NCBI GenBank assembly: GCA_031417555.1
Contig: JANOVV010000112.1
Location: forward strand, 45,559-109,558
Direction of reading: 5' to 3'
Source: Bacteroidota bacterium
GTDB taxonomy: Bacteria > Bacteroidota > Bacteroidia > AKYH767-A > 2013-40CM-41-45
DNA: 64,000 nt
The translations under genes and the position numbers were made by a program. A model generated the notes under the pieces. It saw nothing but the letters and a program-made list of their open reading frames with translations. It was not told the DNA's origin and searched no databases. Shown one piece after another: positions 35,818 through 52,618 of the stretch (position 1 is its first letter; every line of letters begins with the position of its first letter).

Positions 35818-38166
35818 TTGATGTGGTCTAAAAAAAATTACAGCCGTTTATTTTATTCTTTTCCGATTCAGCTTGTTGTTGTGCTGATGAAGAAAAATCA
35901 TTTGTTGTTATTGTATTGGGTAATTTTATTTGGATGGATAACTAATACCACATCTAAAACATTTGGAATCCCCTATTTATTTCTTGATCCGGAATACATG
36001 GGCTCGGTCGGCTTCACATCTTTTTTTATTATGGGATTTGCAGCCGGTAGTTTTATAATGGTGTATAATATTTCCAGTTATATTATAAATGGTTTTCGTT
36101 TCCCTTTTATAGCAACGCTTTCCAGGCCATTTTTAAAATATTCGGTAAATAATTTTATTGTTCCATTGTTATTTATAATAACTTATCTGGGTAATATTAT
36201 TTTCTTTCAGGTTAATAATGAATACCAGACTACCTGGAGCATTATTTCACAGGTTTTGGGTTTTATTGTCGGACTTGCACTTATTGTAATGACGACATTA
36301 ACATATTTCTTCAGAACGAATAAGGATATTATTTTAATGTTTGGAATCGAGTCTTCAGATTCAGATCCTAATGCTCCCTATGCAGAACATCTTCTTTCTG
36401 ATCATGAAAAGGAAAAGAAAAGGAGAATTATAAGAAAAAGAAACTACGTTGAAAAAAGCTGGCGCGTCGATACGTATTTAAGTAATCCATACAAAGTTAA
36501 ATTAGTAAGAGCTACTGCCCACTATACTCGCGAAATGGTGGATTCGGTTTTCAGACAAAATCACTTAAATGCTGCTATTATAGAAATAATCGTATTTGGA
36601 TTATTTATTTTGATGGGATTGTTTAAAGATTATTCTTTCTTTAAGATTCCTGCCGGAGCAAGTGTTATTCTTATCTTTTCTTTATTTATAATGCTAAGTA
36701 GTGCTTTCCGCTTTTGGCTCAAAGCATGGTCGACATCTGTTTTGATTTTAGTAATTCTCGTCTTCAATTTTATTTCCCAGTACGGGTTTTTCTACTCCGA
36801 TAATAAAGCTTACGGAATGGAATACAATAACGGTAAATCAGATTATAGTATTCTCCATTTTAATGAAATCAGTGATTCTATAAAAGTGCAGACGGATTTA
36901 AATTCTACTATCCAAATCCTTGAACGTTGGAAAGAAAAATTTATAAGGCATAATACAAAGCCTAAAATGATTTTCATTAATTGTTCAGGTGGTGGTTTAC
37001 GGGCTTCTATCTGGGCTTACAGGCTTATGCAAATGGCAGATAGTCTTACGAATATGGAATTTTCTAAATCTACTCAATTGATTTCCGGCGCATCGGGAGG
37101 AATGATAGGTGCGGCTTATTACAGAGAACTTTATTTACAAGAGCGTTTAGGATTATTAAAAAGTAAAAACAGTAAAAAAAATATTTTTAATATTGGAAAA
37201 GATCTTCTGAATCCCGTTGCCTTCAGTGTTACGGTAAGTGATATGTTTTTTAATTTACAGAAATTCAAAGAAGGGAATACACATTTTGCAAAAGACAGAG
37301 CCTATGCTTTTGAACAGCAATTGAACGAGAATACCGGTTATGTGCTGAGCAAGCCTTTATCAGCTTATAAGGAGGCGGAAGCCAGCGGACTTATTCCGAT
37401 GATGATCTTTGCTCCTACTATTGTTAATGATGGCCGAAGACTTTTAATTTCTTCACAGGATATTAGTTATATGACTAAGCATACTGTTGATAGTATCTTT
37501 CGTTTTGATCTTACCATTGATGAAATTGAATTTCGTAGACTTTTTGGTAAACAGAATGCAGATAATATCCGATATACTAGTGTTCTTAGAATGAATGCAA
37601 CGTTTCCATATATATTACCTGCTGTAAGTCTTCCGAGTGAACCATTAATTCATGTGATGGATGCCGGTATTCGCGATAATACCGGACTAAAAACATCACT
37701 TAGATTTTTATATATTTTCAAAGAATGGATTGAAGAAAATACCAGTGGTGTAATATTCGTCGATATACGTGATTCTCATAAAGAAAGACCTATTGAAAAT
37801 AAACCGCGCATGACATTGTTGGAAAATATTATTACTCCTCTTGGAAATATTTATGGAAACCTTTTAACGATACAAGATTATAATCAGGATGAAGCCTATG
37901 AATATGCAAAAGGATGGTTCAATGGTAAATTTGATTTCATTAAATTTGAATTGCCAACGAAAGAGCAAGATATATCACTCAGCTGGCATTTGACTACAAG
38001 AGAAAAGGAAAGTGTTTATAATTCAGTATTTCTACATGAAAACAATGTTAGCTTTCAAAAGCTTTTTAAAGTGATGAATGATTTAGAACCGTATGCTTCT
38101 AATTTTATTGCAGAAAAAAATGACAGTATCCTTGCTGGTGGAACTCGAATTGCATTACATAAGTAA
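35818..38166 (+). CDS. Membrane-anchored patatin-like phospholipase
   Basis: An N-terminal multi-TM region of about 330 aa. Patatin motifs follow: oxyanion GGGLRAS, nucleophile GASGG, and Asp motif DAGIRDN. 782 aa. Confidence 0.75.
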   Translation: MMWSKKNYSRLFYSFPIQLVVVLMKKNHLLLLYWVILFGWITNTTSKTFGIPYLFLDPEYMGSVGFTSFFIMGFAAGSFIMVYNISSYIINGFRFPFIATLSRPFLKYSVNNFIVPLLFIITYLGNIIFFQVNNEYQTTWSIISQVLGFIVGLALIVMTTLTYFFRTNKDIILMFGIESSDSDPNAPYAEHLLSDHEKEKKRRIIRKRNYVEKSWRVDTYLSNPYKVKLVRATAHYTREMVDSVFRQNHLNAAIIEIIVFGLFILMGLFKDYSFFKIPAGASVILIFSLFIMLSSAFRFWLKAWSTSVLILVILVFNFISQYGFFYSDNKAYGMEYNNGKSDYSILHFNEISDSIKVQTDLNSTIQILERWKEKFIRHNTKPKMIFINCSGGGLRASIWAYRLMQMADSLTNMEFSKSTQLISGASGGMIGAAYYRELYLQERLGLLKSKNSKKNIFNIGKDLLNPVAFSVTVSDMFFNLQKFKEGNTHFAKDRAYAFEQQLNENTGYVLSKPLSAYKEAEASGLIPMMIFAPTIVNDGRRLLISSQDISYMTKHTVDSIFRFDLTIDEIEFRRLFGKQNADNIRYTSVLRMNATFPYILPAVSLPSEPLIHVMDAGIRDNTGLKTSLRFLYIFKEWIEENTSGVIFVDIRDSHKERPIENKPRMTLLENIITPLGNIYGNLLTIQDYNQDEAYEYAKGWFNGKFDFIKFELPTKEQDISLSWHLTTREKESVYNSVFLHENNVSFQKLFKVMNDLEPYASNFIAEKNDSILAGGTRIALHK

Positions 38167-38735: not shown

Positions 38736-38783
38736 AATTTGTAATGACAAGACCATATGAATTTCAATGTCTCATTACAAATT
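38736..38783 (-). terminator. Stop-codon-proximal hairpin (possible terminator or RNA-stability element; no clean U-tract)
   Basis: aatttgtaatgaca...tgtctcattacaaatt: 12-14 bp stem overlapping the E1 stop codon. Confidence 0.3.
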
Positions 38784-40761
38784 AATAATTCAAAACCTGC
38801 AATAACTGTTCACGAAACCTTTTCTTAGGTAGAAAATTCCATTCAAGATCTACATTCATTGGTACAGGAGTATCCAGGCTGGCTGAACGAATTATCGGTG
38901 CATCAAGAGATTCGAAGCAATGTTCAGAAATATGTGCAGACAACTCACCTCCTATGCCTCCGGTTAAAGTATCCTCATGAAGAATTATGACTCTTCCTGT
39001 TTTTTTTACTGTCTTCTCAACGGCTTCTTTGTCCCACGGCAGCAATGTTCGAAGGTCAAGTAGATCGGCGGATATTTCAGGCATACTCTTTAAAGTTTCT
39101 AAAGCCCAATGAACACCTAAACCATAGGTAATAATTGAAACACTTTTTCCTTCTCTTAACAATTTTGCTTTGCCGATTTCTATAGAATGATAATCATCGA
39201 AAACTTCTTCCGATATACTTCTGTAAAGTGCCTTATGCTCGAAGAACATGACAGGATTTGGATCTTCAATAGATGCAATAAGCAAACCTTTGGCATCCGA
39301 AGGAAAAGCGGGATAAACAATTTTGAGTCCGGGTGTATGAACAAACCAGGCCTCATTCGATTGGCTATGAAAGGGACCGGCACTTACACCTGCACCTGTA
39401 GGCATTCGTATAACGACATCAATAGCCTGACCCCAACGGTAATGAGTTTTAGCAAGATTGTTTATGATTTGATTAAAACCACAGGTGACAAAATCAGCGA
39501 ACTGCATTTCAACAATTGCTTTCATACCATTTATTGAAAGCCCTTGCGCAGCACCGATAATAGCGGATTCACAAATTGGTGTATTCCTAATCCGCTCTCT
39601 TCCAAATTTATCGACAAAACCTATGGTCGCTTTAAAAGCTCCGCCATATTCAGCTATGTCCTGCCCCATAATAATAAGATTCTTATGTTTTTCCATGGCC
39701 TGAGACATGCCATCTGTAATAGCATCAAGAAATCTTTTTTCTGTTTTTTTATTAGATGAGGGAATAATTACAGAAGTTTTTGTTTTTTCATAGATATCAT
39801 TTAATTCTTCCCCGGTATCAACTGCAGGATTGGATTCTGCAAAAGTAATTTCCAAATTTTTCTCTATAGAGTCTTTTATCTCTTTACGAATCAAAGAAAT
39901 ATATGCTTCGTCAATAACTTTTTCTTTAACTAAAAAATTTTCATAATTGTTAATCGGATCCTTCTTTCCCCATTCTTCAAACAAAGCTGGTGGAACATAT
40001 TTAGTCCCTGAAGCCTCTTCATGGCCTCGCATTCTGAAAGTCATGCACTCTAATAAAACAGGGCGCGGATTCTTTCGCATGGATTCTGCCAGACGAGAAA
40101 ATGTAGTATACGATTCGAGAATATTATTTCCATCGATTTGAACGGCTTCAATACCATAGCCAATTCCTTTATCGACAAAATGTTTCATTTTAAATTGTTC
40201 ACTAGATGGTGTAGATAATCCATAACCATTATTCTCGATGATAAAAATTACAGGCAGGTTCCAAACAGCGGCGACATTTATGCTTTCATGAAAATCTCCT
40301 TCACTGGTACCGCCATCGCCGGAGAAAACGGCAGTAATTTTTTTCTTTTTATTGAGTAAATCTGCTAAAGCGATACCATCGGCGACACCCATTTGTGGAC
40401 CCAGATGGGAGATCATTCCTATGATTTTAAATTCGATGGTTCCGAAGTGAAAAGAGCGGTCGCGGCCTTTGGTAAATCCGCCGGGTTTGCCTTGCCATTG
40501 TGAAAACAGGCGATGTAAAGGAATGCCACGGGTTGTAAAAACTCCCAGATTACGATGCATGGGAAGTATGAATTCGTCTTTTTCTAAAGCGAGTCCGCAA
40601 CCAACAGATATTGCCTCCTGGCCGATTCCTGAAAACCATTTAGAAATTTTTCCCTGACGGAGTAAAACGAGCATTTTTTCCTCGATCAGTCGTGGAGTTA
40701 ACAGTTCTTTATAAATAATCCGGAGCTGATCATCGCTATAAAGCGACCGGTCGTAATTCAT
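38782..40761 (-). CDS. 2-oxoacid dehydrogenase E1 component, fused alpha/beta subunits (TPP-dependent)
   Basis: TPP-binding GDGGTSEGDFHESINVAAVWNLPVIFIIENNGYG in the N-terminal half; the C-terminal half is a transketolase-like beta subunit; 659 aa. Confidence 0.85.
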   Translation of the reverse strand: MNYDRSLYSDDQLRIIYKELLTPRLIEEKMLVLLRQGKISKWFSGIGQEAISVGCGLALEKDEFILPMHRNLGVFTTRGIPLHRLFSQWQGKPGGFTKGRDRSFHFGTIEFKIIGMISHLGPQMGVADGIALADLLNKKKKITAVFSGDGGTSEGDFHESINVAAVWNLPVIFIIENNGYGLSTPSSEQFKMKHFVDKGIGYGIEAVQIDGNNILESYTTFSRLAESMRKNPRPVLLECMTFRMRGHEEASGTKYVPPALFEEWGKKDPINNYENFLVKEKVIDEAYISLIRKEIKDSIEKNLEITFAESNPAVDTGEELNDIYEKTKTSVIIPSSNKKTEKRFLDAITDGMSQAMEKHKNLIIMGQDIAEYGGAFKATIGFVDKFGRERIRNTPICESAIIGAAQGLSINGMKAIVEMQFADFVTCGFNQIINNLAKTHYRWGQAIDVVIRMPTGAGVSAGPFHSQSNEAWFVHTPGLKIVYPAFPSDAKGLLIASIEDPNPVMFFEHKALYRSISEEVFDDYHSIEIGKAKLLREGKSVSIITYGLGVHWALETLKSMPEISADLLDLRTLLPWDKEAVEKTVKKTGRVIILHEDTLTGGIGGELSAHISEHCFESLDAPIIRSASLDTPVPMNVDLEWNFLPKKRFREQLLQVLNY

Positions 40762-41427: not shown

Positions 41428-41745
41428 TTAATGTCCTCTTCCGCCTGTCACTTTTTTAGCTTCTTCTATTTTCTTTTGAACAGTAGTCTTGGGTTTTGCC
41501 GGTTTTTTAACTCCAGCAGCCTTTGCCATAGAATCTGCCTGCATAACCATTTTAGCTGAATCCTGTCGGGCTTTTTCCATTAAAGCTTGGGCAGCATTCA
41601 TTGAATCTGCAGCCATTTGAGCCATAACTACATTAATAGAATCCTGACGTGCTTTTTCAGCAGCAGCTTTTTCTTCTGCACTTGGTCCGCAGGCAATAAG
41701 TGCTGTAAAACCAGCAATTAATAGTAGTGATAAGATTTTTTTCAT
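41428..41745 (-). CDS. Small Ala-rich secreted lipoprotein (paralog 2) with basic C-terminal tail
   Basis: Lipobox ALIACG; the same conserved block as paralog 1; a duplicated upstream promoter sequence. Confidence 0.5.
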   Translation of the reverse strand: MKKILSLLLIAGFTALIACGPSAEEKAAAEKARQDSINVVMAQMAADSMNAAQALMEKARQDSAKMVMQADSMAKAAGVKKPAKPKTTVQKKIEEAKKVTGGRGH

Positions 41746-41876: not shown

Positions 41877-42569
41877 ATGAAAAAAAACATCTTATTATTA
41901 TCTTTATTAGTTTTGGGTATTGGAACTACTCTAACATTTACTGGTTGTTCAAAAGACGACACAACAAGCCCTGTTGTAACTATTACTGGAGCAACATCAA
42001 TCGAGCTATCGTTAAATAGTGGAACCTGGATAGACCTTGGAGCTACTGCTACCGATGATGAGGATGGAACTCTGATTGCAACTTCAGACGCAAGTTCAGT
42101 AAATCCAAATACTAGCGCTGTAGGAACTTATACTATTACTTATATTGCAACGGATGCTGCAGGTAATGTTGGAAGTGCCATTCGTACAATTCGTGTTAAA
42201 AACGATGCTGAAAATTTCGCAGGAAATTACAATGTGCATGATACTGTTCCCGGTGATGTTTTTCATTATACACAAACTATTACTGTAGATAATACCTCCA
42301 ACAATGTAGTTCATTTTAACCGTTTTGGTGATTATGCAAATAACTCAGGTATTTTTGCTAACAAACTTGGAAATGGAACTTTACAAATCCCTTCTCAAAC
42401 TGCAATAGATATCGGAACAGGTTCAGGATGTAATGTTTCTAATCATCAGTTTTCAAGTACAAACTTTACAGCCATATCAAATGGTTTTGTACTGGAATAC
42501 ATTGATCAAATTACTTCTTCAGGTTGTACTGCTACTACAACAGGTACTGCAACATATACAAAACAATAA
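41877..42569 (+). CDS. Lipoprotein with bacterial Ig-like (DUF5011-like) domain
   Basis: Lipobox LTFTGCS; the TITGATSIEL...ATATDDEDGTL...YTITYIATDAAGNVGSA pattern is typical of DUF5011 Ig-like domains; a strong terminator follows. Confidence 0.5.
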   Translation: MKKNILLLSLLVLGIGTTLTFTGCSKDDTTSPVVTITGATSIELSLNSGTWIDLGATATDDEDGTLIATSDASSVNPNTSAVGTYTITYIATDAAGNVGSAIRTIRVKNDAENFAGNYNVHDTVPGDVFHYTQTITVDNTSNNVVHFNRFGDYANNSGIFANKLGNGTLQIPSQTAIDIGTGSGCNVSNHQFSSTNFTAISNGFVLEYIDQITSSGCTATTTGTATYTKQ

Positions 42570-42586
42570 TACTATTTTATCATTGA

Positions 42587-42623
42587 AAAGGTCGTCCTCC
42601 ATCCGGTGGACGACCTTTTTTTT
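42587..42623 (+). terminator. Rho-independent terminator
   Basis: aaaGGTCGTCCtccatccggtGGACGACCttttttttg, right after the stop at 42569. Confidence 0.7.
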
Positions 42624-42653: not shown

Positions 42654-44558
42654 ATGATAAATAAGCAAAGTAATTTTCATATTCTTACTTTTAGATTATG
42701 TCTGATACTTTGTATTTATTTTTTCTTACGATTATTATTTTTATTATTTAACATCTCCTATTATTCGGAAGTTGATTTTATTACTTTATCAAAAAGTTTC
42801 TTCTATGGACTTCGTTACGATATAACAGCAATTGTAATAAGCAATGTTGTATACATTGTACTGCATCTTCTACCGTTTCCATTCTTTTATAAAAAGTTTT
42901 ATCAGAGATTCCTAAAAATTCTTTTTTTTATTGTTAATATTCCTCTTATTCTTTTAAGTTGTATCGACATCGGGCTTTTTCAATTTACCGGTAAAAGATC
43001 AGGTTTTGAAATTTTTAAGATAATGAGTTTCGGCAATGATTTTATTAATACACTGCCTAAAATGATTTTGGATTTTTGGTATCTGCTATTGCTATTCTTT
43101 GTCATCACTTTTTTGATGTACAGATATTATCCTGCACTTAAAACAGTAAAGCCAAATACTCAACATAGTAGAAAATATTTTATCGATTCAATTGCAGGAA
43201 AAATTGTTTTATTTTTTCTTTTTACAGCAATGACTTTTATTGGCTTCAGAGGTGGCATTCAATATAAGCCATTGAATATTCTCAGTGCATCCCGATATGG
43301 CACTGGAAAAACAACAGTGTTAATACTAAACACGCCCTTTGTAATATTTAAAACTTATGGGAAGCAAACGTTAGAAGATATTCATTGGATGAATGATGAT
43401 GAATCAGAGAAAATAAATTCTTTTATAAAATTACCTTCTAAAAGAGAAAATTTTAAATCTAAAAATGTAGTAATAATAATTCTCGAAAGTTTCGGAAAAG
43501 AATACATTGGCAGTTTAAATTCTTACCAAGGATTTACTCCTTTCCTTGATTCATTAATCGGAAAAAGTCTGGTTTTTCAAAATGCTTTTGCAAATGGAAA
43601 AAGATCCATTGAAGGAATTCCGGCTATTGTTGCGGGAATTCCTGCTTTGATGACTGATCCTTTTATTACATCCGCATACTCTTCAAATTCAATTACCACG
43701 CTTCCCTCCTTGCTTAAATTAAAAGGATATAATTCGGTATTTTTTCATGGTGGAACAAATGGAACCATGGGTTTCGACAACTTTTCAAAACTTTCAGGGT
43801 TTGATCATTATTTTGGCAGAACCGAATATAATAATGATGCAGATTTTGATGGTAGCTGGGGAATTTATGATGAGCCATTTTTGCAACGTACTGCAGAAGA
43901 AATTAATACTATGAAGCAGCCATTTTTAGCAGCCGTATTTACGTTGTCCTCGCATCATCCCTATAAGATCCCCGAAAGGTATGTTAATCAATTTCCGGCC
44001 GGAACATTATCCATTCATCAGTCGATTCGATACACCGATTACTCATTAAAACGTTTTTTTGAAACAGCATCAAAAATGCCCTGGTATTTAAATACATTGT
44101 TTGTTATCACAGCAGATCATACGGCATTATCGGAGAACTCTTTTTACCAAAATAGTGTCGGACAGCTGGCAATACCAATTCTTTATTTCTGCCCTTCTGA
44201 TTCTACACTTTTTGGAAAAAGCAGATTGACGACTCAACAAATCGATATATTGCCAAGCGTATTAGATTATCTAGGCTATGATCAAAAGTATTTTGCTTTC
44301 GGAAAAAGTGTTTTCACAGATTCTTCTGAGAGTTTGGCAGTAAGTTATTCAAACGAATCCTACCAGTTAATTCAGGATAGCAATGTTTTTATTTTAAGGA
44401 ACAATGAGAAAAATTCTTTTTTTAACTTTGCGACAGACAGTTTGTTAAAAAATGAGCTTCTCGGGACTGATACAGTTAAAGAAAGAATGATGGAGAAGAA
44501 ATTAAAATCTTTTATTCAGAATTTTAATCACGCTCTTATTCATAATGAAATGAAATAG
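42654..44558 (+). CDS. LTA synthase (LtaS/MdoB)-family membrane sulfatase-like phosphoglycerol transferase
   Basis: Five N-terminal TM helices and an extracytoplasmic alkaline-phosphatase-superfamily domain (VIIILESFGKEY...); 634 aa. Confidence 0.75.
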   Translation: MINKQSNFHILTFRLCLILCIYFFLRLLFLLFNISYYSEVDFITLSKSFFYGLRYDITAIVISNVVYIVLHLLPFPFFYKKFYQRFLKILFFIVNIPLILLSCIDIGLFQFTGKRSGFEIFKIMSFGNDFINTLPKMILDFWYLLLLFFVITFLMYRYYPALKTVKPNTQHSRKYFIDSIAGKIVLFFLFTAMTFIGFRGGIQYKPLNILSASRYGTGKTTVLILNTPFVIFKTYGKQTLEDIHWMNDDESEKINSFIKLPSKRENFKSKNVVIIILESFGKEYIGSLNSYQGFTPFLDSLIGKSLVFQNAFANGKRSIEGIPAIVAGIPALMTDPFITSAYSSNSITTLPSLLKLKGYNSVFFHGGTNGTMGFDNFSKLSGFDHYFGRTEYNNDADFDGSWGIYDEPFLQRTAEEINTMKQPFLAAVFTLSSHHPYKIPERYVNQFPAGTLSIHQSIRYTDYSLKRFFETASKMPWYLNTLFVITADHTALSENSFYQNSVGQLAIPILYFCPSDSTLFGKSRLTTQQIDILPSVLDYLGYDQKYFAFGKSVFTDSSESLAVSYSNESYQLIQDSNVFILRNNEKNSFFNFATDSLLKNELLGTDTVKERMMEKKLKSFIQNFNHALIHNEMK

Positions 44559-44562
44559 ACAG

Positions 44563-45447
44563 ATGCAAAAAATCCGTTTTATTATTAATCCGAATTCAGG
44601 CACAGGCAAAAAAAATCTTTTACCGGATCTGATTAATAAATTTATAGATAAAGAAAAATACGTTTTTGAAATTTGCCTGACTCAAGCACCCGGGCATGCA
44701 ACTGAATTAGCTAAGGATGCAGTCGAAAAAGAATTTAATATTGTTGTCTCTGTTGGTGGAGATGGATCAGTAAATGAAACTGCAAAAGCGTTATTTAAAA
44801 CCAATACAACCCTTGGAATAATTCCTACAGGTTCCGGAAATGGCTTAGCACGACATTTAGGAATTTCTGTTGATGTGGAAAAGGCTATTAATATTATTAA
44901 TAAAGGTACAGTCGACAACATTGATACTGTATCTGTAAATGACAGATTCTGCATAGGAACTATTGGGGTCGGATTTGATGCACACATTGCACATCTATTC
45001 GCTAAAGCAACGAAACGGGGATATTCTACCTATGTAATACTGGTACTCACGGAATTTTCGTCTTATAAAGAAAAAAGATTTTCTATTCTTGTAGATGGTA
45101 ATTTATTTGAAAGGGATTGTTTCCTGTTGACCTTTGCCAATTCATCACAATTCGGTAATAATGCAGTAATTGCTCCATTTGCAAATATTAAAGATGGTAT
45201 AATTGATATTACAATAATGAGCAGATTTCCGGCTATCTCAGCGCCATCGCTGATTTACCGATTAATGAATAACTCCATACAAGGATCACGGTTTTTTGAA
45301 TCGATGAGAGGAAAAGAAATAATAGTTGAAAATAATGGTTCCTTACTTGGACATATTGATGGTGAACCGGTAATTTTTAATACAGATTTAAAAATAAATG
45401 TTAATCCGCTTTCAATAAAAGTAATTGTACCGGAAATTGTGAAATAA
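44563..45447 (+). CDS. YegS/BmrU-type lipid (diacylglycerol) kinase
   Basis: DAGK_cat motifs IINPNSGTGK, VSVGGDGSVNE and GIIPTGSGNGLARHLG. Confidence 0.85.
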   Translation: MQKIRFIINPNSGTGKKNLLPDLINKFIDKEKYVFEICLTQAPGHATELAKDAVEKEFNIVVSVGGDGSVNETAKALFKTNTTLGIIPTGSGNGLARHLGISVDVEKAINIINKGTVDNIDTVSVNDRFCIGTIGVGFDAHIAHLFAKATKRGYSTYVILVLTEFSSYKEKRFSILVDGNLFERDCFLLTFANSSQFGNNAVIAPFANIKDGIIDITIMSRFPAISAPSLIYRLMNNSIQGSRFFESMRGKEIIVENNGSLLGHIDGEPVIFNTDLKINVNPLSIKVIVPEIVK

Positions 45448-45809
45448 TGATTTTGGAAAAATATTTTAAGAGTTTTACCTACGCTATCGCCGGAATCGGA
45501 TATGCTTTCAGAAGCCAGGTAAATATGCGTTTTCATATTATAGCAGCTTTGGTAGTAATTATTTCTGCAATTATTCTTCATCTCTCTCCACTTGAATGGT
45601 GCATCGTCTTACTTTGTATAGGATCAGTTATTGCTGCGGAGCTTATCAATACTTCCATTGAAATAAATGTTGATTTACTCTCTCCGGAGCGAAATGTAAA
45701 AGCAGGAAATATAAAAGACCTGGCAGCAGCTGCCGTTTTGGTTATTTGTGCTGTTTCAGCAATAATCGGTTTGATAGTTTTTATTCCGAAAATAATTCAC
45801 TTCATTTGA
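45447..45809 (+). CDS. dgkA: Prokaryotic membrane diacylglycerol kinase (DgkA family)
   Basis: 120 aa, three TM helices, and AELINTSIE (DgkA signature). The start overlaps the upstream stop. Confidence 0.8.
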   Translation: MILEKYFKSFTYAIAGIGYAFRSQVNMRFHIIAALVVIISAIILHLSPLEWCIVLLCIGSVIAAELINTSIEINVDLLSPERNVKAGNIKDLAAAAVLVICAVSAIIGLIVFIPKIIHFI

Positions 45810-45811
45810 AT

Positions 45812-46144
45812 ATGTCGAAGAAAGTTAAACCAGGAGGAATTGTATATTCTACCAATCCGGATTATAAATATTCAGCTCAGCCACACCAGGGAGCAACCAT
45901 TGCACCACAAGCTCAGGACTTAAAAATTTCCCTCGATAAGAAAAACCGTGGCGGCAAAACTGTTACAATAATTTCAGGCTTTGTTGGAAAAGAAGAAGCC
46001 ATTGAAAAGCTTGGCCGTGAATTAAAATCAAAATGTGGTGTAGGTGGCTCTATTAAAGATGGGGAAATAATTATTCAAGGTGATCATAGAGATAGAGTTT
46101 TAAACTTACTTATGAAAGAGGGATATAAGGCGAGGAAAATTTGA
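45812..46144 (+). CDS. SUI1/YciH-family translation initiation factor-like protein
   Basis: GGKTVTIISGF...GVGGSIKDGEIIIQGDHRDRV pattern of the SUI1 family. The ORF opens at 45746 inside dgkA; the Met at 45812 fits better. Confidence 0.7.
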   Translation: MSKKVKPGGIVYSTNPDYKYSAQPHQGATIAPQAQDLKISLDKKNRGGKTVTIISGFVGKEEAIEKLGRELKSKCGVGGSIKDGEIIIQGDHRDRVLNLLMKEGYKARKI

Positions 46145-47967: not shown

Positions 47968-50919
47968 TCAATTATTGCCTACCCGCTGATCGAGGATTGA
48001 TTTATAAATGATTTCCTGGATATTTGTCCTAACGTTCATTTTAATTAATTTATCGTTAGACACATCGGGATTAATTCTGTTAGATAGAAAAATATATATT
48101 AAACCATATTTAGGATCAGCCCATGCACATGTTCCGGTAAAACCCTGATGACCAAAAGTCATTGGCGATGCTGATGGACTGCAAGGGCTGACTTTTGAAG
48201 GATCAATTTCCGGTTTATCGAATAAAAGTCCGCGACGATTCTGTGGAAATTGTTTTTGAGTAAAAGCTTGAATGGTTGAGGGCTTTAACAATCTTTGTCC
48301 GCCATAAATTCCATCGTTAAGAAGCATTTGCATTATTACAGCCAAATTGTTGGCATCACTAAATACGCCTGCATTTCCGGAAACTCCTCCTAACATTGCA
48401 GCTGCGGGATCATGTACAAAACCTCTCAACAATTGTTTCCTGAAGACAGTATCATTTTCTGTTGGGACAATTTCATTCAATTTAAAATTATTACGTGGAT
48501 TAAATGTTAAGCGGGAAAGTTTTAATGGTTTATAAAAATTTTCATAAACATATTTATCTAAAGTTTCTTTTGTAATATTTTCAATAACCTCTTTCATTAA
48601 AATCGGTCCAAAATCACTGTAAACGTATTTTCCTTTTTCACCCAATGGAGAAGTGTAAATATGTTTTCGAATAGTATCTGCATAACTTTTCAATAAATAA
48701 ATGCTGTCAGCGACGTGTAATGTAAATTTATCATCAGGTGAATTTTTGTACAAAGTATTTGAAAGACCATTAGGAACCAAGGTTTCTTTATAGAAAGGAA
48801 TCCATGATTGAAGTCCGGCCTGATGAGCCAGAATTTCTTTTATGGTAAGATTACTTTTATTTGTGCCTTTTGATTTTGGTAAATATTTGGAGAGTGTATA
48901 ATATAAATTGATTTTATTTTTCTCGTATAATTTCATTGAAGCAAGCGCTGTTGCTGCAATTTTAGTAACTGAGGCAATATCATATAAATCTGAATTGCTA
49001 ACAGAATCGGTTGAATCATAACTTTGATAACCGAATGATTTTTGAAAAACTACTTTACCATTTCTTGCGACTAATATCTGACAACCGGGCATTGCTCCAT
49101 TTTTAATTGCTGAGTTAACAACGCTGTCAATTTTATTGAGTTGAATGGACGACATGCCGGCAGCCTCGGGAATAGTATATTGGAGTCGAATAGTTTTTCC
49201 GGATTTGACACTTGTATTTCTTGGAAAATCGGGCGTAGATGAAACAGGAATTTTCCCTGATGCACTTAATCCTCCCATTATAACTTGTGCTGCTATTGAT
49301 TGGGTAATTGCAAAGTCTTCATAAGCAAGAAGGATTGCTTTCGCAGATTTTAAATTTTTGAAACGGGAAAGAGTATATGCATTTCCAAAATCTACAAAAA
49401 CGGTTTTATATTTTGAGAGCACATTATCGATAAACTTTGCGGCTGATGGTGGAATACCATAACCGGTTTGAGCTTTCATGGTAGTTCCATGCAAACTTAA
49501 AATTACATAATCATAATTCGAAAGAAAGTTAAACAAAGCTTCATAGACAGATACCGGGGCATCTTTATCTTCCGAAAAGACATCCAGATTTCCATACATT
49601 TTTAACTGCTGTTGAAATGAATTATTGATCAAATCTCCTATTACAACGCTTGCAATTCGTATAGAATCCTTTGATCGAAATGGTAAAAGAGAATCTTTGT
49701 TTACCAATAATGCAATTGATTCTTCATAGAGCTTTCTTTGTAACAGTAATCCATCTGGATTATTTAAATCATTATACAAATTAGTTGTATCAATAATTTG
49801 CGAACGATTAAGTCCGCACCAGAATTTTACCATTAATAATTTTTTAACACGAGAATCAATTTCCTCCTGGGTAATTTCGCAATTCTCGACAGCATAATGT
49901 ATTTCCAGAATTCCTTTAGGTACATCTTCCGGATAAAGTAATACATCATTTCCCGCCAATAAAGCCATCTTGTCGACAATTCCGGGTTTGTGGCTTTGCG
50001 TTACCCCTTTCATATTCAACGCATCCGTAAATATTAAGCCTTTAAATCCCATTCTTTCCTTTAGCAAACCGGTTACAATGGAAGTTGACAATGTTGACGG
50101 CATGTTTTGATTGGTATCAAGTGATGGCACATTCAGATGAGCCACCATTATTCCTGCAAGACCGGATGAAATTAATTTTCGGAAAGGATAAAGTTCAACG
50201 GAATCGATTTCCAGAGTATCCTGAAAAATTGTTGGTAATGAAAAGTGAGAATCGGTATCTGCATTTCCATGACCCGGAAAATGTTTGCCTGTTGCCAGGA
50301 TGTGATTATCCTGAAGGGCATTCATATAATAAAGCGATTTTATTGTTACGTTTTCTCTTTCATCACCAAATGACCGGCTGCCAATTACAGGATTGGCAGG
50401 GTTATTATTTATATCCGCATCAGGAGCAAAATTAACATGTATGCCAAGTCGTTTGCAATTTTTTGCAATTTCATTTCCCATTTTGTAAACGACACTGTCA
50501 TTTTGTATTGCAGAAAGAGTCATCTGCCTCGGGAATCGAATCGTACTATCCAGGCGCATAGCAAGACCCCACTCGGCATCCATACCAATTAGCAGAGGAA
50601 CTTTTGATTTGCTTTGATAATTGTTTGTCAGTATGGCTTCTCTGAATGGACCGCCTTGAAAAAAAATCAATCCTCCTATTCCATATTTTTCAATTAGTCC
50701 CGAAATTTCTTTGATGTGATCGGTATCTTTATTACTCCAGGCCGCAACCATCATCAGCTGTGCAATTCTTTCTTCGCGATTGAGTTTTTTAATAATAGAA
50801 TCAGCCCAATATTCTGCTTCTTTTGAAAAGAAAGGTGGATTATCCGCAGCCCTTACTTTCTGAAAGCAAATTACAATAAATAGAACTACCAGACAGGCAG
50901 ACAAAAACCTATTATTCAT
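47968..50919 (-). CDS. GH3 (NagZ-like beta-N-acetylhexosaminidase) domain fused to a beta-lactamase-family serine hydrolase domain
   Basis: GH3 motif KHFPGHGNADTDSH; the C-terminal half carries the S-x-x-K motif (ASVTKIAA); signal peptide; 983 aa. Confidence 0.8.
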   Translation of the reverse strand: MNNRFLSACLVVLFIVICFQKVRAADNPPFFSKEAEYWADSIIKKLNREERIAQLMMVAAWSNKDTDHIKEISGLIEKYGIGGLIFFQGGPFREAILTNNYQSKSKVPLLIGMDAEWGLAMRLDSTIRFPRQMTLSAIQNDSVVYKMGNEIAKNCKRLGIHVNFAPDADINNNPANPVIGSRSFGDERENVTIKSLYYMNALQDNHILATGKHFPGHGNADTDSHFSLPTIFQDTLEIDSVELYPFRKLISSGLAGIMVAHLNVPSLDTNQNMPSTLSTSIVTGLLKERMGFKGLIFTDALNMKGVTQSHKPGIVDKMALLAGNDVLLYPEDVPKGILEIHYAVENCEITQEEIDSRVKKLLMVKFWCGLNRSQIIDTTNLYNDLNNPDGLLLQRKLYEESIALLVNKDSLLPFRSKDSIRIASVVIGDLINNSFQQQLKMYGNLDVFSEDKDAPVSVYEALFNFLSNYDYVILSLHGTTMKAQTGYGIPPSAAKFIDNVLSKYKTVFVDFGNAYTLSRFKNLKSAKAILLAYEDFAITQSIAAQVIMGGLSASGKIPVSSTPDFPRNTSVKSGKTIRLQYTIPEAAGMSSIQLNKIDSVVNSAIKNGAMPGCQILVARNGKVVFQKSFGYQSYDSTDSVSNSDLYDIASVTKIAATALASMKLYEKNKINLYYTLSKYLPKSKGTNKSNLTIKEILAHQAGLQSWIPFYKETLVPNGLSNTLYKNSPDDKFTLHVADSIYLLKSYADTIRKHIYTSPLGEKGKYVYSDFGPILMKEVIENITKETLDKYVYENFYKPLKLSRLTFNPRNNFKLNEIVPTENDTVFRKQLLRGFVHDPAAAMLGGVSGNAGVFSDANNLAVIMQMLLNDGIYGGQRLLKPSTIQAFTQKQFPQNRRGLLFDKPEIDPSKVSPCSPSASPMTFGHQGFTGTCAWADPKYGLIYIFLSNRINPDVSNDKLIKMNVRTNIQEIIYKSILDQRVGNN

Positions 50920-51040: not shown

Positions 51041-52018
51041 TTGTTTAGGCATGGATATATTACATTTATTTGTATCTTATATTCAAGAATACCTGATTAC
51101 TATCCAATGAATCGTAAAAGCGTCTGGATTATTTTATTTGTTTTTGTGCTTACATTATTTTTTAGAAAAGCAGGAATGGCTTTTGGTTCTGTATTTATTT
51201 CTATTTCAGCTATAATTCTTGGTTTTTATTTGTTAACAAACTCTTTTTTTTTCGATAGAATTTATCAAAGAATTGCAGCTTTCATATTTTTATTTTTTTC
51301 TGTGGCATTATTGCAATATTGGTTAAAGCAAATACATTTTAATATTTTTGGCTTACAGGAATATTCTATTTATATACTAATAATTTCGTGTTGGATTATC
51401 TTTTCCTTTTACTCCTATCAAAGTATAAAAAGCAATATTCTTACTTTATCTTTTTGGTTAATACTAAGTATTATATTTATCAGCTCTGTAATTTTGAATC
51501 CAAGAGAATTTCATAATTTCTATCGTTCCAATACATACGAAGAATATATTAGATCGAGATATACAGAACAATCGGGAATTGTGGCAGACTTATATATAGA
51601 TAAGTATAAAAAAGTTGATAGAAAAAAAGCTTCCGATTTATTAAAAGAAGCAATGGTATCGGATAGTTTATCTCAATACGACAATGCTTTGTTTCTTTAT
51701 AATAAAAGTATTGATTTAAATCCTGATGATGCAAAAGCGTATTACATGCGTGGACTGCTTAAATTAATACATCTGGATTTAAATTTTTCAGTAGCCAATT
51801 CGGCTATAAAAGATTTCAACAGAGCGATACGTCTGGATTCTAATTATTCAGAGGCCTATTTTCACCGTAGTTTGGCACTAGGGTATTTAGGAATGCGAGG
51901 CCGGTCTTTTCTGGACATGAAAAAAGTTTGGGAAATAGATAGTATAATTTCGGATGAACTTTTTGAGAAAAGGTATGGTTCATCAAAAAAATCTTTTTCT
52001 ATACCATTTCACCCTTGA
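51041..52018 (+). CDS. Membrane protein with C-terminal TPR repeats
   Basis: Several TM helices followed by TPR-like repeats (AKAYYMRGLL...SEAYFHRSLALGY). The start may be the Met at 51107. Convergent 36-nt overlap with plsY. Confidence 0.45.
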   Translation: MFRHGYITFICILYSRIPDYYPMNRKSVWIILFVFVLTLFFRKAGMAFGSVFISISAIILGFYLLTNSFFFDRIYQRIAAFIFLFFSVALLQYWLKQIHFNIFGLQEYSIYILIISCWIIFSFYSYQSIKSNILTLSFWLILSIIFISSVILNPREFHNFYRSNTYEEYIRSRYTEQSGIVADLYIDKYKKVDRKKASDLLKEAMVSDSLSQYDNALFLYNKSIDLNPDDAKAYYMRGLLKLIHLDLNFSVANSAIKDFNRAIRLDSNYSEAYFHRSLALGYLGMRGRSFLDMKKVWEIDSIISDELFEKRYGSSKKSFSIPFHP

Positions 52019-52618
52019 TTCTTCTTTTCGAATGATTCTTTCTATGTTTCTCTGATGAGTAACCAAAATTAAAATTGCGACTGCAAGAGAAAAAATATTA
52101 ATACTTGAATTTGTTGAATAAAAAACCATAATGACAATCGGAAAAACAATTCCACTGATCATGCTGCTTAAAGAAACATATCCGCTTAAATATAGAGTGA
52201 CAATAAAACTAAGTGCACAAATTACAGCTGCTTGAGGATGAATTCCTATCAATATACCTAACATAGTTGCTACTCCTTTACCACCCCGAAAGCCGACAAA
52301 AACCGGGAAAATATGTCCCATGATTCCGCAAACGGCCAGTGCCAGTTCATAGTCAATAAACTCAGGAGATTGTGAATCATAATCTCCCATAATAAAAGCA
52401 AGTTTTACGGCAAGGAATCCTTTTAGGATATCCATAATTAAGACTACGATCCCTGGTTTTCTGCCTAATACACGAAATGTGTTGGTGGCACCTGCATTAC
52501 CGCTGCCGTATTCTCTGACATCAATGTTATAAAAAGTACGGCCAACCCAGACCGCAGAAGGAATAGATCCTACCAGATATGCGACAAGTAAACCAATAAG
52601 ATTCGGTACTGTAAGCAA
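51983..52618 (-). CDS. plsY: Glycerol-3-phosphate acyltransferase PlsY
   Basis: N-terminus LLVAYLVGSIPSAVWVG...GSGNAGATN; 211 aa; multi-TM. Confidence 0.9.
   Translation of the reverse strand: MLTVPNLIGLLVAYLVGSIPSAVWVGRTFYNIDVREYGSGNAGATNTFRVLGRKPGIVVLIMDILKGFLAVKLAFIMGDYDSQSPEFIDYELALAVCGIMGHIFPVFVGFRGGKGVATMLGILIGIHPQAAVICALSFIVTLYLSGYVSLSSMISGIVFPIVIMVFYSTNSSINIFSLAVAILILVTHQRNIERIIRKEESRVKWYRKRFF

What the first reader, a model, noticed from the sequence alone, without database searches (positions are those of the whole stretch)
42654..45809. LtaS-family phosphoglycerol-transferase-like gene co-operonic with two different diacylglycerol kinases
Three same-strand genes have 4-bp or overlapping junctions: an LtaS/MdoB-family membrane sulfatase-like transferase (42654-44558), a YegS-type soluble lipid kinase (44563-45447) and a DgkA-type membrane DAG kinase (45447-45809). 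LtaS/MdoB-type enzymes transfer glycerol-phosphate from phosphatidylglycerol to an acceptor and release diacylglycerol. In E. coli, DgkA recycles DAG generated by MdoB. That much is established knowledge. A dedicated operon coupling such a transferase to two DAG kinases suggests a headgroup-transfer reaction onto an unidentified envelope acceptor with built-in DAG salvage. This organism is Gram-negative and lacks LTA. The Ig-like lipoprotein immediately upstream could be related.
Basis: partly seen in the sequence, partly recalled or inferred. Interest (0 to 1): 0.5.

Follow-up and report, generated by a model that had tools for sequence, protein, structure and literature searches.

The report
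LtaS-like transferase with lipid-kinase operon
A Bacteroidota chromosome carries an uncharacterised membrane enzyme of the lipoteichoic-acid-synthase family hard-wired to a phylum-specific lipid kinase, a pairing kept across the phylum that probably marks an unknown envelope modification with built-in lipid recycling.

Summary
The three genes are real and sit exactly where stated. A fourth gene, yciH/SUI1, follows 2 nt later.

**Transferase.** It is LtaS-like, not an arylsulfatase. It has five membrane helices and a periplasmic domain with invariant metal ligands and a Ser nucleophile. The residues that bind glycerol-phosphate in LtaS are replaced, so the transferred headgroup (from PG or PE) is open.

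**Conserved core.** The core is transferase plus soluble kinase: 60 of 71 related Bacteroidota loci keep the pair, median gap 35 nt, even where the flanks differ.

**DgkA-type gene.** It is a clade-specific insertion (16 of 57 loci). It resembles the Gram-positive undecaprenol-kinase branch (40% identity) more than E. coli DgkA (25%).

**Soluble kinase.** It belongs to a Bacteroidota-specific family. The sister subfamily lies beside serine palmitoyltransferase in gut Bacteroidales and includes P. gingivalis dhSphK1 (39% identity), which was never tested on DAG.

**Reading.** The best reading is a phospho-headgroup transferase with DAG salvage onto an unknown acceptor, at about 0.5. A link to sphingolipids is a live rival.

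**Status.** This is a new variant of a known kind, of moderate interest.

The parts
41877..42569 (+). Two-domain surface-type lipoprotein (DUF5011 / Bact_surface_Ig-like N-domain plus a C-terminal beta domain). It is a frequent upstream neighbour and is probably not part of the core unit.
   Evidence: Pfam PF16403 at 2.7e-11. The lipobox reads LTFTGC followed by SKDD. The AF2 model has pLDDT 90.8. Its best PDB match is the SusCD-associated lipoprotein BT2262, E 2e-7. It is adjacent on the same strand in 23 of 66 loci.
42585..42623 (+). Intrinsic-terminator-like hairpin (GGUCGUCC...GGACGACC) followed by T8, lying between the lipoprotein gene and the transferase gene.
   Evidence: Fold dG -26.2 kcal/mol, z -4.99. 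An equivalent hairpin plus T-run occurs in 22 of the 25 related loci with the lipoprotein upstream that were examined.
42654..44558 (+). LtaS-family membrane transferase: five N-terminal TM helices (N-in) and a periplasmic alkaline-phosphatase-superfamily domain. The predicted metal site is E278/D488/H489 with H434, and the nucleophile is S318.
44563..45447 (+). Soluble DAGK_cat/YegS_C lipid kinase of a Bacteroidota-specific family. It carries the GGDG motif (D67) and a C-terminal DGE motif. It is the conserved partner of the transferase.
45447..45809 (+). DgkA-family three-helix membrane kinase. It is a clade-specific insertion and is closer to the Gram-positive (undecaprenol kinase) branch than to E. 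coli DgkA.
45812..46144 (+). SUI1/YciH-type translation factor. It is the last gene of the co-directional cluster and is probably a passenger.
   Evidence: Pfam SUI1 at 2.3e-21. It lies 2 nt after the dgkA stop. It follows the kinase (or dgkA) in 38 of 57 loci.

Best explanation
This is a chromosomal operon whose conserved core is two genes.

**Proposed mechanism.**
1. The first product is an LtaS-family inner-membrane enzyme. On the periplasmic face, its metal-activated Ser318 attacks the phosphodiester of a glycerophospholipid (PG or PE). This forms a covalent phospho-headgroup-enzyme intermediate and releases sn-1,2-diacylglycerol.
2. The headgroup is then passed to a hydroxyl of an unidentified envelope acceptor, either a membrane lipid or a glycan.
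3. DAG flips to the cytoplasmic leaflet.
4. There the second product, a soluble DAGK_cat kinase, converts DAG to phosphatidic acid for re-entry into phospholipid synthesis. This is the role DgkB plays for LTA synthesis in Bacillus/Staphylococcus, and the role DgkA plays for OpgB/EptA in E. coli.

**Accessory genes.** The DgkA-type third gene is a later, lineage-specific addition. It may be a second DAG kinase or, by similarity, a polyprenol kinase. yciH is a passenger.

**Shown versus inferred.** Shown: gene order, family membership, topology, conservation of catalytic residues, and synteny. Inferred: the donor, the acceptor, DAG as the kinase substrate, and co-transcription.
For: - **Fold and sequence.** The closest matches are VP1736 and LtaS/LtaP (TM-score 0.72-0.82 normalised to the target); arylsulfatases score lower.
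- **Topology.** Five TM helices with positive-inside loops place the catalytic domain in the periplasm.
- **Catalytic residues.** E278, D488, H489, H434 and H365 are invariant in 56 homologues. S318 is Ser in 55 and Thr in 1. These match LtaS E255/T300/D475/H476/H416/H347 as listed in bioRxiv 10.1101/337519.
- **Synteny.** The kinase lies directly downstream on the same strand in 60 of 71 loci, down to 43% transferase identity, with a median gap of 35 nt. The triad is kept in L090 with entirely different flanks.
- **Kinase relatives.** The best solved relatives by sequence are DgkB-type DAG kinases, and the protein passes TIGR00147.
- **Precedent.** A headgroup transferase genetically coupled to a DAG kinase is already known: mcr-3-dgkA, and eptA co-regulated with dgkA (PMC7559476).
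- **Established knowledge.** DAG release by LtaS/GacH-type enzymes is stated in bioRxiv 10.1101/337519. The requirement of B. subtilis DgkB for LTA synthesis is from my own knowledge (Jerga et al. 2007).
Against: - No activity was measured.
- The glycerol-binding residues of LtaS (D349, W354, R356) are not conserved.
- The equivalog scores for LtaS (99.7 versus 970) and OpgB (67.6 versus 574) are far below cut-off. Donor and product are therefore unknown.
- The nearest experimentally studied homologue of the kinase, PG1348, was reported as a dihydrosphingosine kinase (PMC9045371). Its subfamily sits beside Spt.
- In Porphyromonas the kinase has no LtaS-like neighbour.
- No promoter was identified, and there are no transcript data.
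Confidence: 0.5

Rival explanations
1. Sphingolipid module. The kinase phosphorylates a sphingoid base or dihydroceramide, like P. gingivalis dhSphK1 or Caulobacter CpgB. The LtaS-like enzyme acts on sphingolipid head groups, for example installing or remodelling phosphoglycerol or phosphoethanolamine on dihydroceramide. DAG salvage is then not the kinase's job.
For: The kinase is 39% identical, with no gaps over its full length, to PG1348/dhSphK1 (PMC9045371). The sister subfamily is divergently adjacent to serine palmitoyltransferase, which passes the NF047600 equivalog, in Parabacteroides, Bacteroides, Phocaeicola and Prevotella. The whole family is Bacteroidota-specific and far from DgkB (24% identity) and YegS (25%). 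No PG-DHC or PE-DHC synthase gene was found in the literature searched.
Against: No Spt-like gene lies within 6 kb of any of the 80 transferase-kinase loci, nor in the 64-kb window. LtaS-linked and Spt-linked kinases form separate clades (99.5% and 70% bootstrap), so function may differ between them. The PG1348 assays used lysates and NBD-sphinganine and never tested DAG. Porphyromonas makes PG-DHC but has no adjacent LtaS-like gene.
Confidence: 0.22
2. Conserved gene order without functional coupling. The transferase, kinase, yciH (and hemJ, bshA) are simply neighbouring housekeeping genes inherited together.
For: yciH, hemJ and bshA also travel with the cluster in the nearest clade. yciH follows in 38 of 57 loci despite having no obvious lipid role.
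Against: The pair persists at 43-49% identity where hemJ and bshA are gone, and in L090 with completely different flanks. Gaps are operon-like (median 35 nt). The biochemical logic of a DAG-releasing family beside a DAG-kinase-family enzyme is specific.
Confidence: 0.1
3. The LtaS-like protein is a non-enzymatic PbgA/YejM-type lipid sensor or regulator rather than a transferase.
For: Full-length PbgA/YejM structures (five TM helices plus a periplasmic AP-fold domain) are significant Foldseek matches (6xlp, 6v8q; E 1e-15 to 1e-16).
Against: The metal ligands and the hydroxyl nucleophile are invariant across 56 homologues. LtaS, LtaP and VP1736 match better in both sequence and fold.
Confidence: 0.05
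4. Polyprenol-linked chemistry. In the DgkA-bearing clade the cluster serves undecaprenyl-phosphate supply (undecaprenol kinase), and the transferase uses or feeds a polyprenyl-phosphate-linked substrate.
For: The window DgkA is 40% identical (82.8 bits) to the Paenibacillus ybeY-dgkA-cdd-era gene, against 25% (37.4 bits) to E. coli DgkA. A tblastn of the plasmid collection found only Bacteroidales and Gram-positive DgkA genes and no proteobacterial ones. B. subtilis DgkA is an undecaprenol kinase (PMC5723303). In P. distasonis the DgkA-type gene is paired with a PAP2 phosphatase.
Against: DgkA is absent from most transferase-kinase loci (41 of 57), so it cannot define the core function. Substrate cannot be read from sequence. 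No LtaS-family enzyme is known to use polyprenyl donors (my knowledge).
Confidence: 0.08

Closest known systems
LtaS/LtaP (Gram-positive lipoteichoic acid synthase/primase) with DgkB-mediated DAG recycling
   Same: Five-TM plus extracytoplasmic AP-superfamily architecture. Conserved metal ligands and the phosphate-binding His. Best characterised sequence and fold matches. A soluble DAGK_cat kinase serves as the salvage partner.
   Different: The host is a diderm Bacteroidota without LTA. The nucleophile is Ser rather than Thr. The glycerol-binding D349/W354/R356 are replaced by invariant G/M/F, with an invariant K-R before the nucleophile. The score is 99.7 bits against a cut-off of 970. Here the kinase is co-operonic, whereas to my knowledge ltaS and dgkB are unlinked in Bacillus and Staphylococcus.
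VP1736 of Vibrio parahaemolyticus (PDB 3lxq), uncharacterised AP-superfamily protein
   Same: It is the best sequence match (1.7e-42; profile 5.5e-53) and the best fold match (TM-score 0.80-0.82 normalised to the target). It shares the T/K-R-S motif at the nucleophile.
   Different: Only about 26% identical. Its function is unknown, so it gives no functional transfer.
E. coli OpgB (MdoB)/EptA with DgkA; mcr-3-dgkA cassettes
   Same: A periplasmic phospho-headgroup transferase in a Gram-negative releases DAG, which a kinase recycles. mcr-3-dgkA shows direct genetic linkage (PMC7559476).
   Different: OpgB equivalogs score 67.6 and 51.4 bits against cut-offs of 574 and 572. There is no EptA N-domain (PF08019) hit. 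The conserved partner here is a soluble DAGK_cat enzyme, not DgkA.
P. gingivalis PG1348 (dhSphK1) and the Spt-linked kinases of gut Bacteroidales
   Same: The same Bacteroidota-specific kinase family: 39% identity, no gaps, 216 bits, against 58-68 bits to YegS and DgkB. The catalytic GGDG Asp is conserved.
   Different: They form a sister clade (99.5% bootstrap) with a different genomic partner (Spt or queF rather than the LtaS-like gene). The reported substrate is dihydrosphingosine, and DAG was not tested.
B. subtilis/S. mutans DgkA (undecaprenol kinase)
   Same: The window DgkA-type protein is 40% identical over its full length to a Firmicutes ybeY-dgkA-cdd-era orthologue. The active-site E/N/E and K-D motifs are conserved.
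   Different: Substrate preference cannot be inferred from sequence. The genomic context here is a lipid-headgroup operon, not ybeY-era.

Membership tests
LtaS-type glycerophosphate transferase (LtaS/LtaP/GacH) | N-terminal polytopic membrane domain plus an extracytoplasmic alkaline-phosphatase-superfamily domain | tested here: met
   Five hydrophobic helices with positive-inside loops. AF2 model with pLDDT 83. Foldseek to LtaS/LtaP gives TM-score 0.72-0.78 normalised to the target.
LtaS-type glycerophosphate transferase (LtaS/LtaP/GacH) | Mn2+ ligands equivalent to E255, D475 and H476, plus the phosphate-binding H416 | tested here: met
   E278, D488, H489 and H434 are invariant in 56 homologues. 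The residue list comes from bioRxiv 10.1101/337519.
LtaS-type glycerophosphate transferase (LtaS/LtaP/GacH) | Thr nucleophile (T300) | tested here: inconclusive
   The aligned position holds Ser318 (55 Ser, 1 Thr of 56) at the N-terminus of a predicted helix. The pairwise alignments are ambiguous by one residue. A hydroxyl nucleophile is present, but it is not Thr.
LtaS-type glycerophosphate transferase (LtaS/LtaP/GacH) | Glycerol-binding residues H347 and R356 (with D349 and W354) | tested here: not met
   H365 matches H347. However, D349, W354 and R356 align without gaps to invariant G367, M372 and F374.
LtaS equivalog (NCBIfam NF053595) | Score at or above the curated cut-off | tested here: not met
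   99.7 bits against 970.
OpgB/MdoB phosphoglycerol transferase I (NF003000, NF009027) | Score at or above the curated cut-off | tested here: not met
   67.6 bits against 574, and 51.4 bits against 572.
Formylglycine arylsulfatases | C/S-x-P-x-R motif at the nucleophile, and best similarity to sulfatases | tested here: not met
   The motif here is K-R-S-I-E-G-I. The arylsulfatase model scores 18.4 bits. Sulfatases rank below LtaS in both the profile search and the fold search.
EptA/MCR phosphoethanolamine transferases | EptA-type N-terminal domain and closest fold match | tested here: not met
   There is no Pfam hit other than PF00884. No EptA or MCR structure appears among the top 50 Foldseek matches. 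Use of PE as donor is not excluded by this.
YegS/Rv2252/BmrU lipid kinase subfamily (TIGR00147) | Score at or above the curated cut-off; DAGK_cat plus YegS_C domains | tested here: met
   136.5 bits against 118.65. Both Pfam domains are full length.
DgkB (Gram-positive DAG kinase) and YegS equivalogs | Score at or above the curated cut-off | tested here: not met
   NF009874 scores 106.3 against 385; NF009602 scores 121.9 against 284. Identity is 24-25% to Listeria DgkB and Klebsiella YegS.
Bacteroidota dhSphK1 (PG1348) kinase subfamily | Membership of the PG1348 clade, and Spt or queF genomic context | tested here: not met
   The family is shared (39% identity), but this kinase falls in the sister clade. 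No Spt gene lies nearby.
Bacteroidota dhSphK1 (PG1348) kinase subfamily | Dihydrosphingosine kinase activity | not testable with these tools
   This needs an enzyme assay. The published assay did not include DAG.
DgkA family (PF01219) | Pfam score; three TM helices; E/N/E and K-D active-site motifs | tested here: met
   112.7 bits against 22.3. Three helices. Alignment to E. coli DgkA retains E69/N72/E76 and K94/D95.
E. coli-type DAG kinase versus Gram-positive undecaprenol kinase branch of DgkA | Greater similarity to one branch | tested here: inconclusive
   82.8 bits and 40% identity to the Paenibacillus ybeY-linked DgkA, against 37.4 bits and 25% to E. coli DgkA. Plasmid-collection hits are only Bacteroidales and Gram-positives. 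Similarity favours the undecaprenol-kinase branch, but the substrate is not proven.

The most novel reading that the evidence does not exclude
The LtaS-like enzyme is a missing bacterial 'sphingomyelin-synthase-like' activity of a new structural type. It would transfer phosphoglycerol or phosphoethanolamine from a glycerophospholipid onto a non-glycerolipid membrane acceptor of Bacteroidota, such as dihydroceramide or a serine-glycine lipodipeptide, and release DAG. The Bacteroidota-specific kinase family, including the published dhSphK1, would then be primarily the DAG-salvage kinase of these headgroup-exchange reactions. That would explain why the family sits beside Spt in some lineages and beside the transferase in others.
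Probability: 0.15. Interest if true: 0.8.

Novelty: new variant of a known kind. Interest (0 to 1): 0.5.

Why it matters
Bacteroidota envelopes carry phosphoglycerol- and phosphoethanolamine-bearing lipids. In the literature I could search, no biosynthetic gene was named for them, and the 2022 PG1348 paper states that the sphingolipid pathway had not been elucidated. LtaS-family proteins in Gram-negatives are largely unstudied.

A transferase-kinase operon conserved across the phylum gives a concrete two-gene target for finding a new envelope modification and its DAG salvage route.

It also raises a testable question about the P. gingivalis 'dihydrosphingosine kinase' family, which is relevant to host-active lipids. 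Is it really, or also, a DAG kinase?

Tried and rejected
- **Caulobacter cpgABC as an analogue.** CpgB is a DAGK_cat ceramide kinase, but the papers read describe no sulfatase or LtaS-type partner. Dropped.
- **Chondrinema litorale plasmid locus** (sulfatase-GH5-kinase, L097). The sulfatase there is a soluble arylsulfatase: 127 bits to the arylsulfatase model and only 40 bits to the window protein. Unrelated.
- **P. gingivalis locus.** It was recovered by using a published cloning primer as a probe. No LtaS-like gene lies next to PG1348, whose neighbour is queF. So the idea that dhSphK1 lies in the same operon is rejected.
- **Plasmid collection.** It holds only distant (22-29%) LtaS-family paralogues and no orthologue.
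- **The listing of cluster members.** It returned no organism names.
- **Sigma-70 promoter and terminator scan.** Results were no better than shuffles, and the scan missed the real hairpin because its loop is longer than 8 nt. Bacteroidota promoters are not covered by the tool.
- **Defence-system and RNA-family checks.** Both empty.
- **Literature searches.** Searches for LtaS-like enzymes in Bacteroidota found nothing relevant.
- **Lipoprotein fold search.** It gave only a generic SusCD-associated lipoprotein match, with no clue to a role as acceptor.
- **Van Horn & Sanders review.** Not held in the library.
Full report
**Observation**

The window holds three + strand ORFs exactly as described: 42654-44558 (634 aa), 44563-45447 (294 aa) and 45447-45809 (120 aa). 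Pfam assigns Sulfatase (3.2e-37), DAGK_cat plus YegS_C (3.6e-31 and 3.4e-19) and DAGK_prokar (8.3e-33). The junctions are a 4-nt spacer and a 1-nt TAATG overlap.

A SUI1/YciH homologue starts 2 nt after the dgkA stop, at 45812-46144. Downstream, hemJ and bshA converge on the other strand.

Upstream, the Ig-like lipoprotein gene ends 84 nt before the transferase start. The spacer holds a GC-rich hairpin followed by T8 (dG -26.2 kcal/mol, z -5.0).

The wider window is ordinary Bacteroidota chromosome: housekeeping genes and proteins with T9SS sorting domains. No defence-system or Rfam match lies in the cluster.

**The transferase**

- *Sequence ranking.* NCBIfam ranks LtaS (99.7 bits) above OpgB (67.6 and 51.4 bits), and both far above arylsulfatase (18.4 bits). 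All are far below their equivalog cut-offs.
- *Solved structures.* The best match is the uncharacterised Vibrio protein VP1736 (1.7e-42; 5.5e-53 with a 56-sequence profile). Next come Listeria, Bacillus and Staphylococcus LtaS/LtaP. Sulfatases appear only at 1e-6 or weaker.
- *Fold.* An AF2 model (pLDDT 83) gives the same order by Foldseek: VP1736, LtaP/LtaS (TM-score 0.72-0.82 normalised to the target), then full-length PbgA/YejM, then arylsulfatases. No EptA or MCR structure appears in the top 50.
- *Topology.* Hydropathy shows five helices with positive-inside loops. The N-terminus is cytoplasmic and the catalytic domain periplasmic, which is the LtaS topology.
- *Conserved catalytic residues.* Alignment to S. 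aureus LtaS matches E255, D475, H476, H416 and H347 with E278, D488, H489, H434 and H365. All five are invariant in 56 homologues. The nucleophile position holds S318 (55 Ser, 1 Thr) at the start of a predicted helix. The LtaS residue roles are taken from bioRxiv 10.1101/337519.
- *Replaced residues.* The glycerol-contacting D349, W354 and R356 align without gaps to invariant G367, M372 and F374. An invariant K316-R317 precedes the nucleophile, as in VP1736.

The protein is therefore a probably active member of the broad LtaS family with a different headgroup pocket. The sequence does not show that it transfers glycerol-phosphate. A PE donor would release DAG just as well.

**Synteny**

A scan of one genome per species found at least 599 relatives. 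The best 80 loci (43-83% identity) are almost all labelled Bacteroidota or a member taxon.

| Feature | Loci |
|---|---|
| Kinase directly downstream, same strand (median gap 35 nt) | 60 of 71 with room |
| yciH follows the kinase (or dgkA) | 38 of 57 |
| DgkA-type gene between kinase and yciH | 16 of 57 |
| Lipoprotein adjacent upstream, same strand | 23 of 66 |

On a tree of the transferases, the DgkA-bearing loci form a single clade containing the window, with at least one secondary loss (L003/L004). Loci lacking the kinase are scattered.

Independent gene calls with precomputed Pfam hits confirm the Sulfatase-DAGK_cat-DAGK_prokar order. In L090 (49% identity) the flanks are entirely different (parAB, dapB and lepB upstream; an epimerase downstream). 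The unit itself is therefore conserved, not merely the region around it.

The lipoprotein-hairpin-transferase arrangement recurs. Of the 25 loci with the lipoprotein upstream that were examined, 22 have a hairpin plus T-run in a 52-261 nt spacer. The lipoprotein is a two-domain DUF5011 protein (AF2 pLDDT 90.8). Its best structural match is the SusCD-associated lipoprotein BT2262, which says nothing about a role here.

**The soluble kinase**

It passes the YegS/Rv2252/BmrU subfamily model but none of the DgkB or YegS equivalogs. Its best solved relatives are DgkB-type DAG kinases at only 58-68 bits.

The literature pointed to P. gingivalis PG1348 (dhSphK1), a DAGK_cat protein reported to phosphorylate NBD-dihydrosphingosine in lysates. 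Its deletion raises PG-DHC and lowers PE-DHC (PMC9045371). DAG was not tested as a substrate.

I used the published cloning primer as a probe and recovered the gene from metagenome contigs. It is 39% identical to the window kinase, with no gaps over its full length (216 bits). Its neighbour is queF, and no LtaS-like gene is nearby.

Relatives of PG1348 lie divergently next to a gene that passes the NCBIfam equivalog for CFB-group serine palmitoyltransferase (692-700 bits against 640). This holds in Parabacteroides, Bacteroides finegoldii, and a further metagenomic contig of unnamed origin (L094). In Phocaeicola and Prevotella, an Spt homologue found by tblastn (62-70% identity to the Parabacteroides Spt) lies in the same divergent position. 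P. pogonae keeps queF instead.

In a tblastn of the plasmid collection, Bacteroidales kinases score 217-237 bits. Every other phylum scores 137 bits or less.

A bootstrapped NJ tree with Klebsiella YegS and Listeria DgkB as outgroups gave the following:

| Grouping | Bootstrap support |
|---|---|
| Spt/queF-linked clade | 99.5% |
| LtaS-linked clade | 70% |
| The two clades together | 80% |

The two clades are about 39% identical to each other and 24-25% identical to DgkB and YegS.

No Spt-like gene lies within 6 kb of any transferase-kinase locus, nor in the window.

The kinase therefore belongs to a phylum-specific family with two alternative conserved partners. The only experimental data concern the other subfamily.

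**The DgkA-type gene**

The active-site motifs of E. coli DgkA are retained, but similarity is low (25%, 37.4 bits). A Paenibacillus gene in the ybeY-dgkA-cdd-era context is 40% identical over the full length (82.8 bits). From my knowledge, that is the context of B. subtilis dgkA.

The plasmid collection returned only Bacteroidales and Gram-positive homologues. This is notable because mcr-3-linked dgkA genes are plasmid-borne (PMC7559476).

B. subtilis DgkA is an undecaprenol kinase (PMC5723303, citing Jerga 2007). In P. distasonis the homologue is paired with a PAP2 phosphatase.

The third gene may therefore not be a DAG kinase at all. In any case it is a lineage-specific add-on.

**Mechanism**

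The best-supported reading (about 0.5) runs as follows:

1. The LtaS-like enzyme removes a phospho-headgroup from PG or PE at the periplasmic face through a Ser318-phosphoester intermediate.
2. It passes the headgroup to an unknown lipid or glycan acceptor and leaves DAG behind.
3. The co-operonic soluble kinase returns DAG to phosphatidic acid.

This is the logic of LTA synthesis with DgkB and of OpgB/EptA with DgkA. It has a genetic precedent in mcr-3-dgkA (PMC7559476). Family membership, topology, catalytic-residue conservation and synteny are shown. Donor, acceptor, kinase substrate and co-transcription are inferred.

The main rival (about 0.2) is that the kinase is a sphingoid or ceramide kinase and that the pair acts in sphingolipid head-group metabolism.

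The two readings merge in the most novel one. There the transferase installs phosphoglycerol or phosphoethanolamine on dihydroceramide or lipodipeptides, and the kinase family salvages the resulting DAG. No gene for those head-group steps was found in the literature I could search.

Lesser rivals are listed in the report with their evidence:
- inherited gene order without functional coupling;
- a PbgA-like non-enzymatic role for the transferase;
- polyprenol-linked chemistry.

**Novelty and verdict**

No paper describing this operon or a Bacteroidota LtaS-like enzyme was found.

The finding is real. The points that need correction are 'two DAG kinases', 'phosphoglycerol', and the omission of yciH and of the terminator.

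It is a new variant of a known kind: a headgroup transferase with DAG salvage. Interest is moderate, and is raised by the link to the dhSphK1/Spt kinase family.

Noticed in passing
window 45812-46144 (+): A SUI1/YciH translation-factor gene starts 2 nt after the dgkA stop. It follows the kinase (or dgkA) in 38 of 57 related loci. Why a translation factor is so persistently the last gene of this lipid cluster is unexplained.
   Followed up: partly
L092, L094, L095, L096, L101, L102 (Parabacteroides, Bacteroides, Prevotella, Phocaeicola, and the unnamed contig L094): In gut and oral Bacteroidales the homologous DAGK_cat kinase is divergently adjacent to serine palmitoyltransferase (NF047600 equivalog passed where tested). 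In Porphyromonas it is next to queF instead.
   Followed up: yes
L089 5001-5919 (Parabacteroides distasonis): A DgkA-type gene lies 4 nt upstream of a PAP2-family phosphatase gene. This pairing would fit polyprenyl-phosphate or phosphatidate metabolism.
   Followed up: no
window 42585-42623 and 22 of 25 related loci: A terminator-like hairpin plus T-run is conserved in the short spacer between the DUF5011 lipoprotein gene and the transferase gene. This leaves only about 30 nt for a promoter in this window, so read-through or attenuation control of the operon is possible.
   Followed up: partly
window 35818-38166 (+): A 782-aa polytopic membrane protein has only a weak, sub-threshold patatin-like phospholipase hit (21 bits against a cut-off of 27.7). 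It is a possible lipid hydrolase about 4.5 kb upstream of the cluster.
   Followed up: no
window 52707-57188 (-) and 28686-31352 (-): Two very large ORFs (1493 aa and 888 aa) have no significant Pfam domain.
   Followed up: no
window 47968-50919 (-): A 983-aa fusion of a GH3 (NagZ-like) glycosidase with a beta-lactamase/PBP-like domain. It is conserved next to bshA in related loci (L091).
   Followed up: no
window 38782-40761 (-): A single 659-aa protein fuses the alpha (E1_dh) and beta (Transket_pyr, Transketolase_C) parts of a 2-oxoacid dehydrogenase E1 component.
   Followed up: no
window 41428-41745 (-): A small 105-aa lipoprotein with an Ala/Lys/Gln-rich repeated motif (EKARQDS occurs twice) lies between the E1 gene and the DUF5011 lipoprotein gene. 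It has no family assignment.
   Followed up: no
window 51983-52618 (-) and 51041-52018 (+): plsY (glycerol-3-phosphate acyltransferase) lies about 6 kb from the cluster. Its ORF overlaps the 3' end of a convergent TPR-protein ORF by 36 nt.
   Followed up: no
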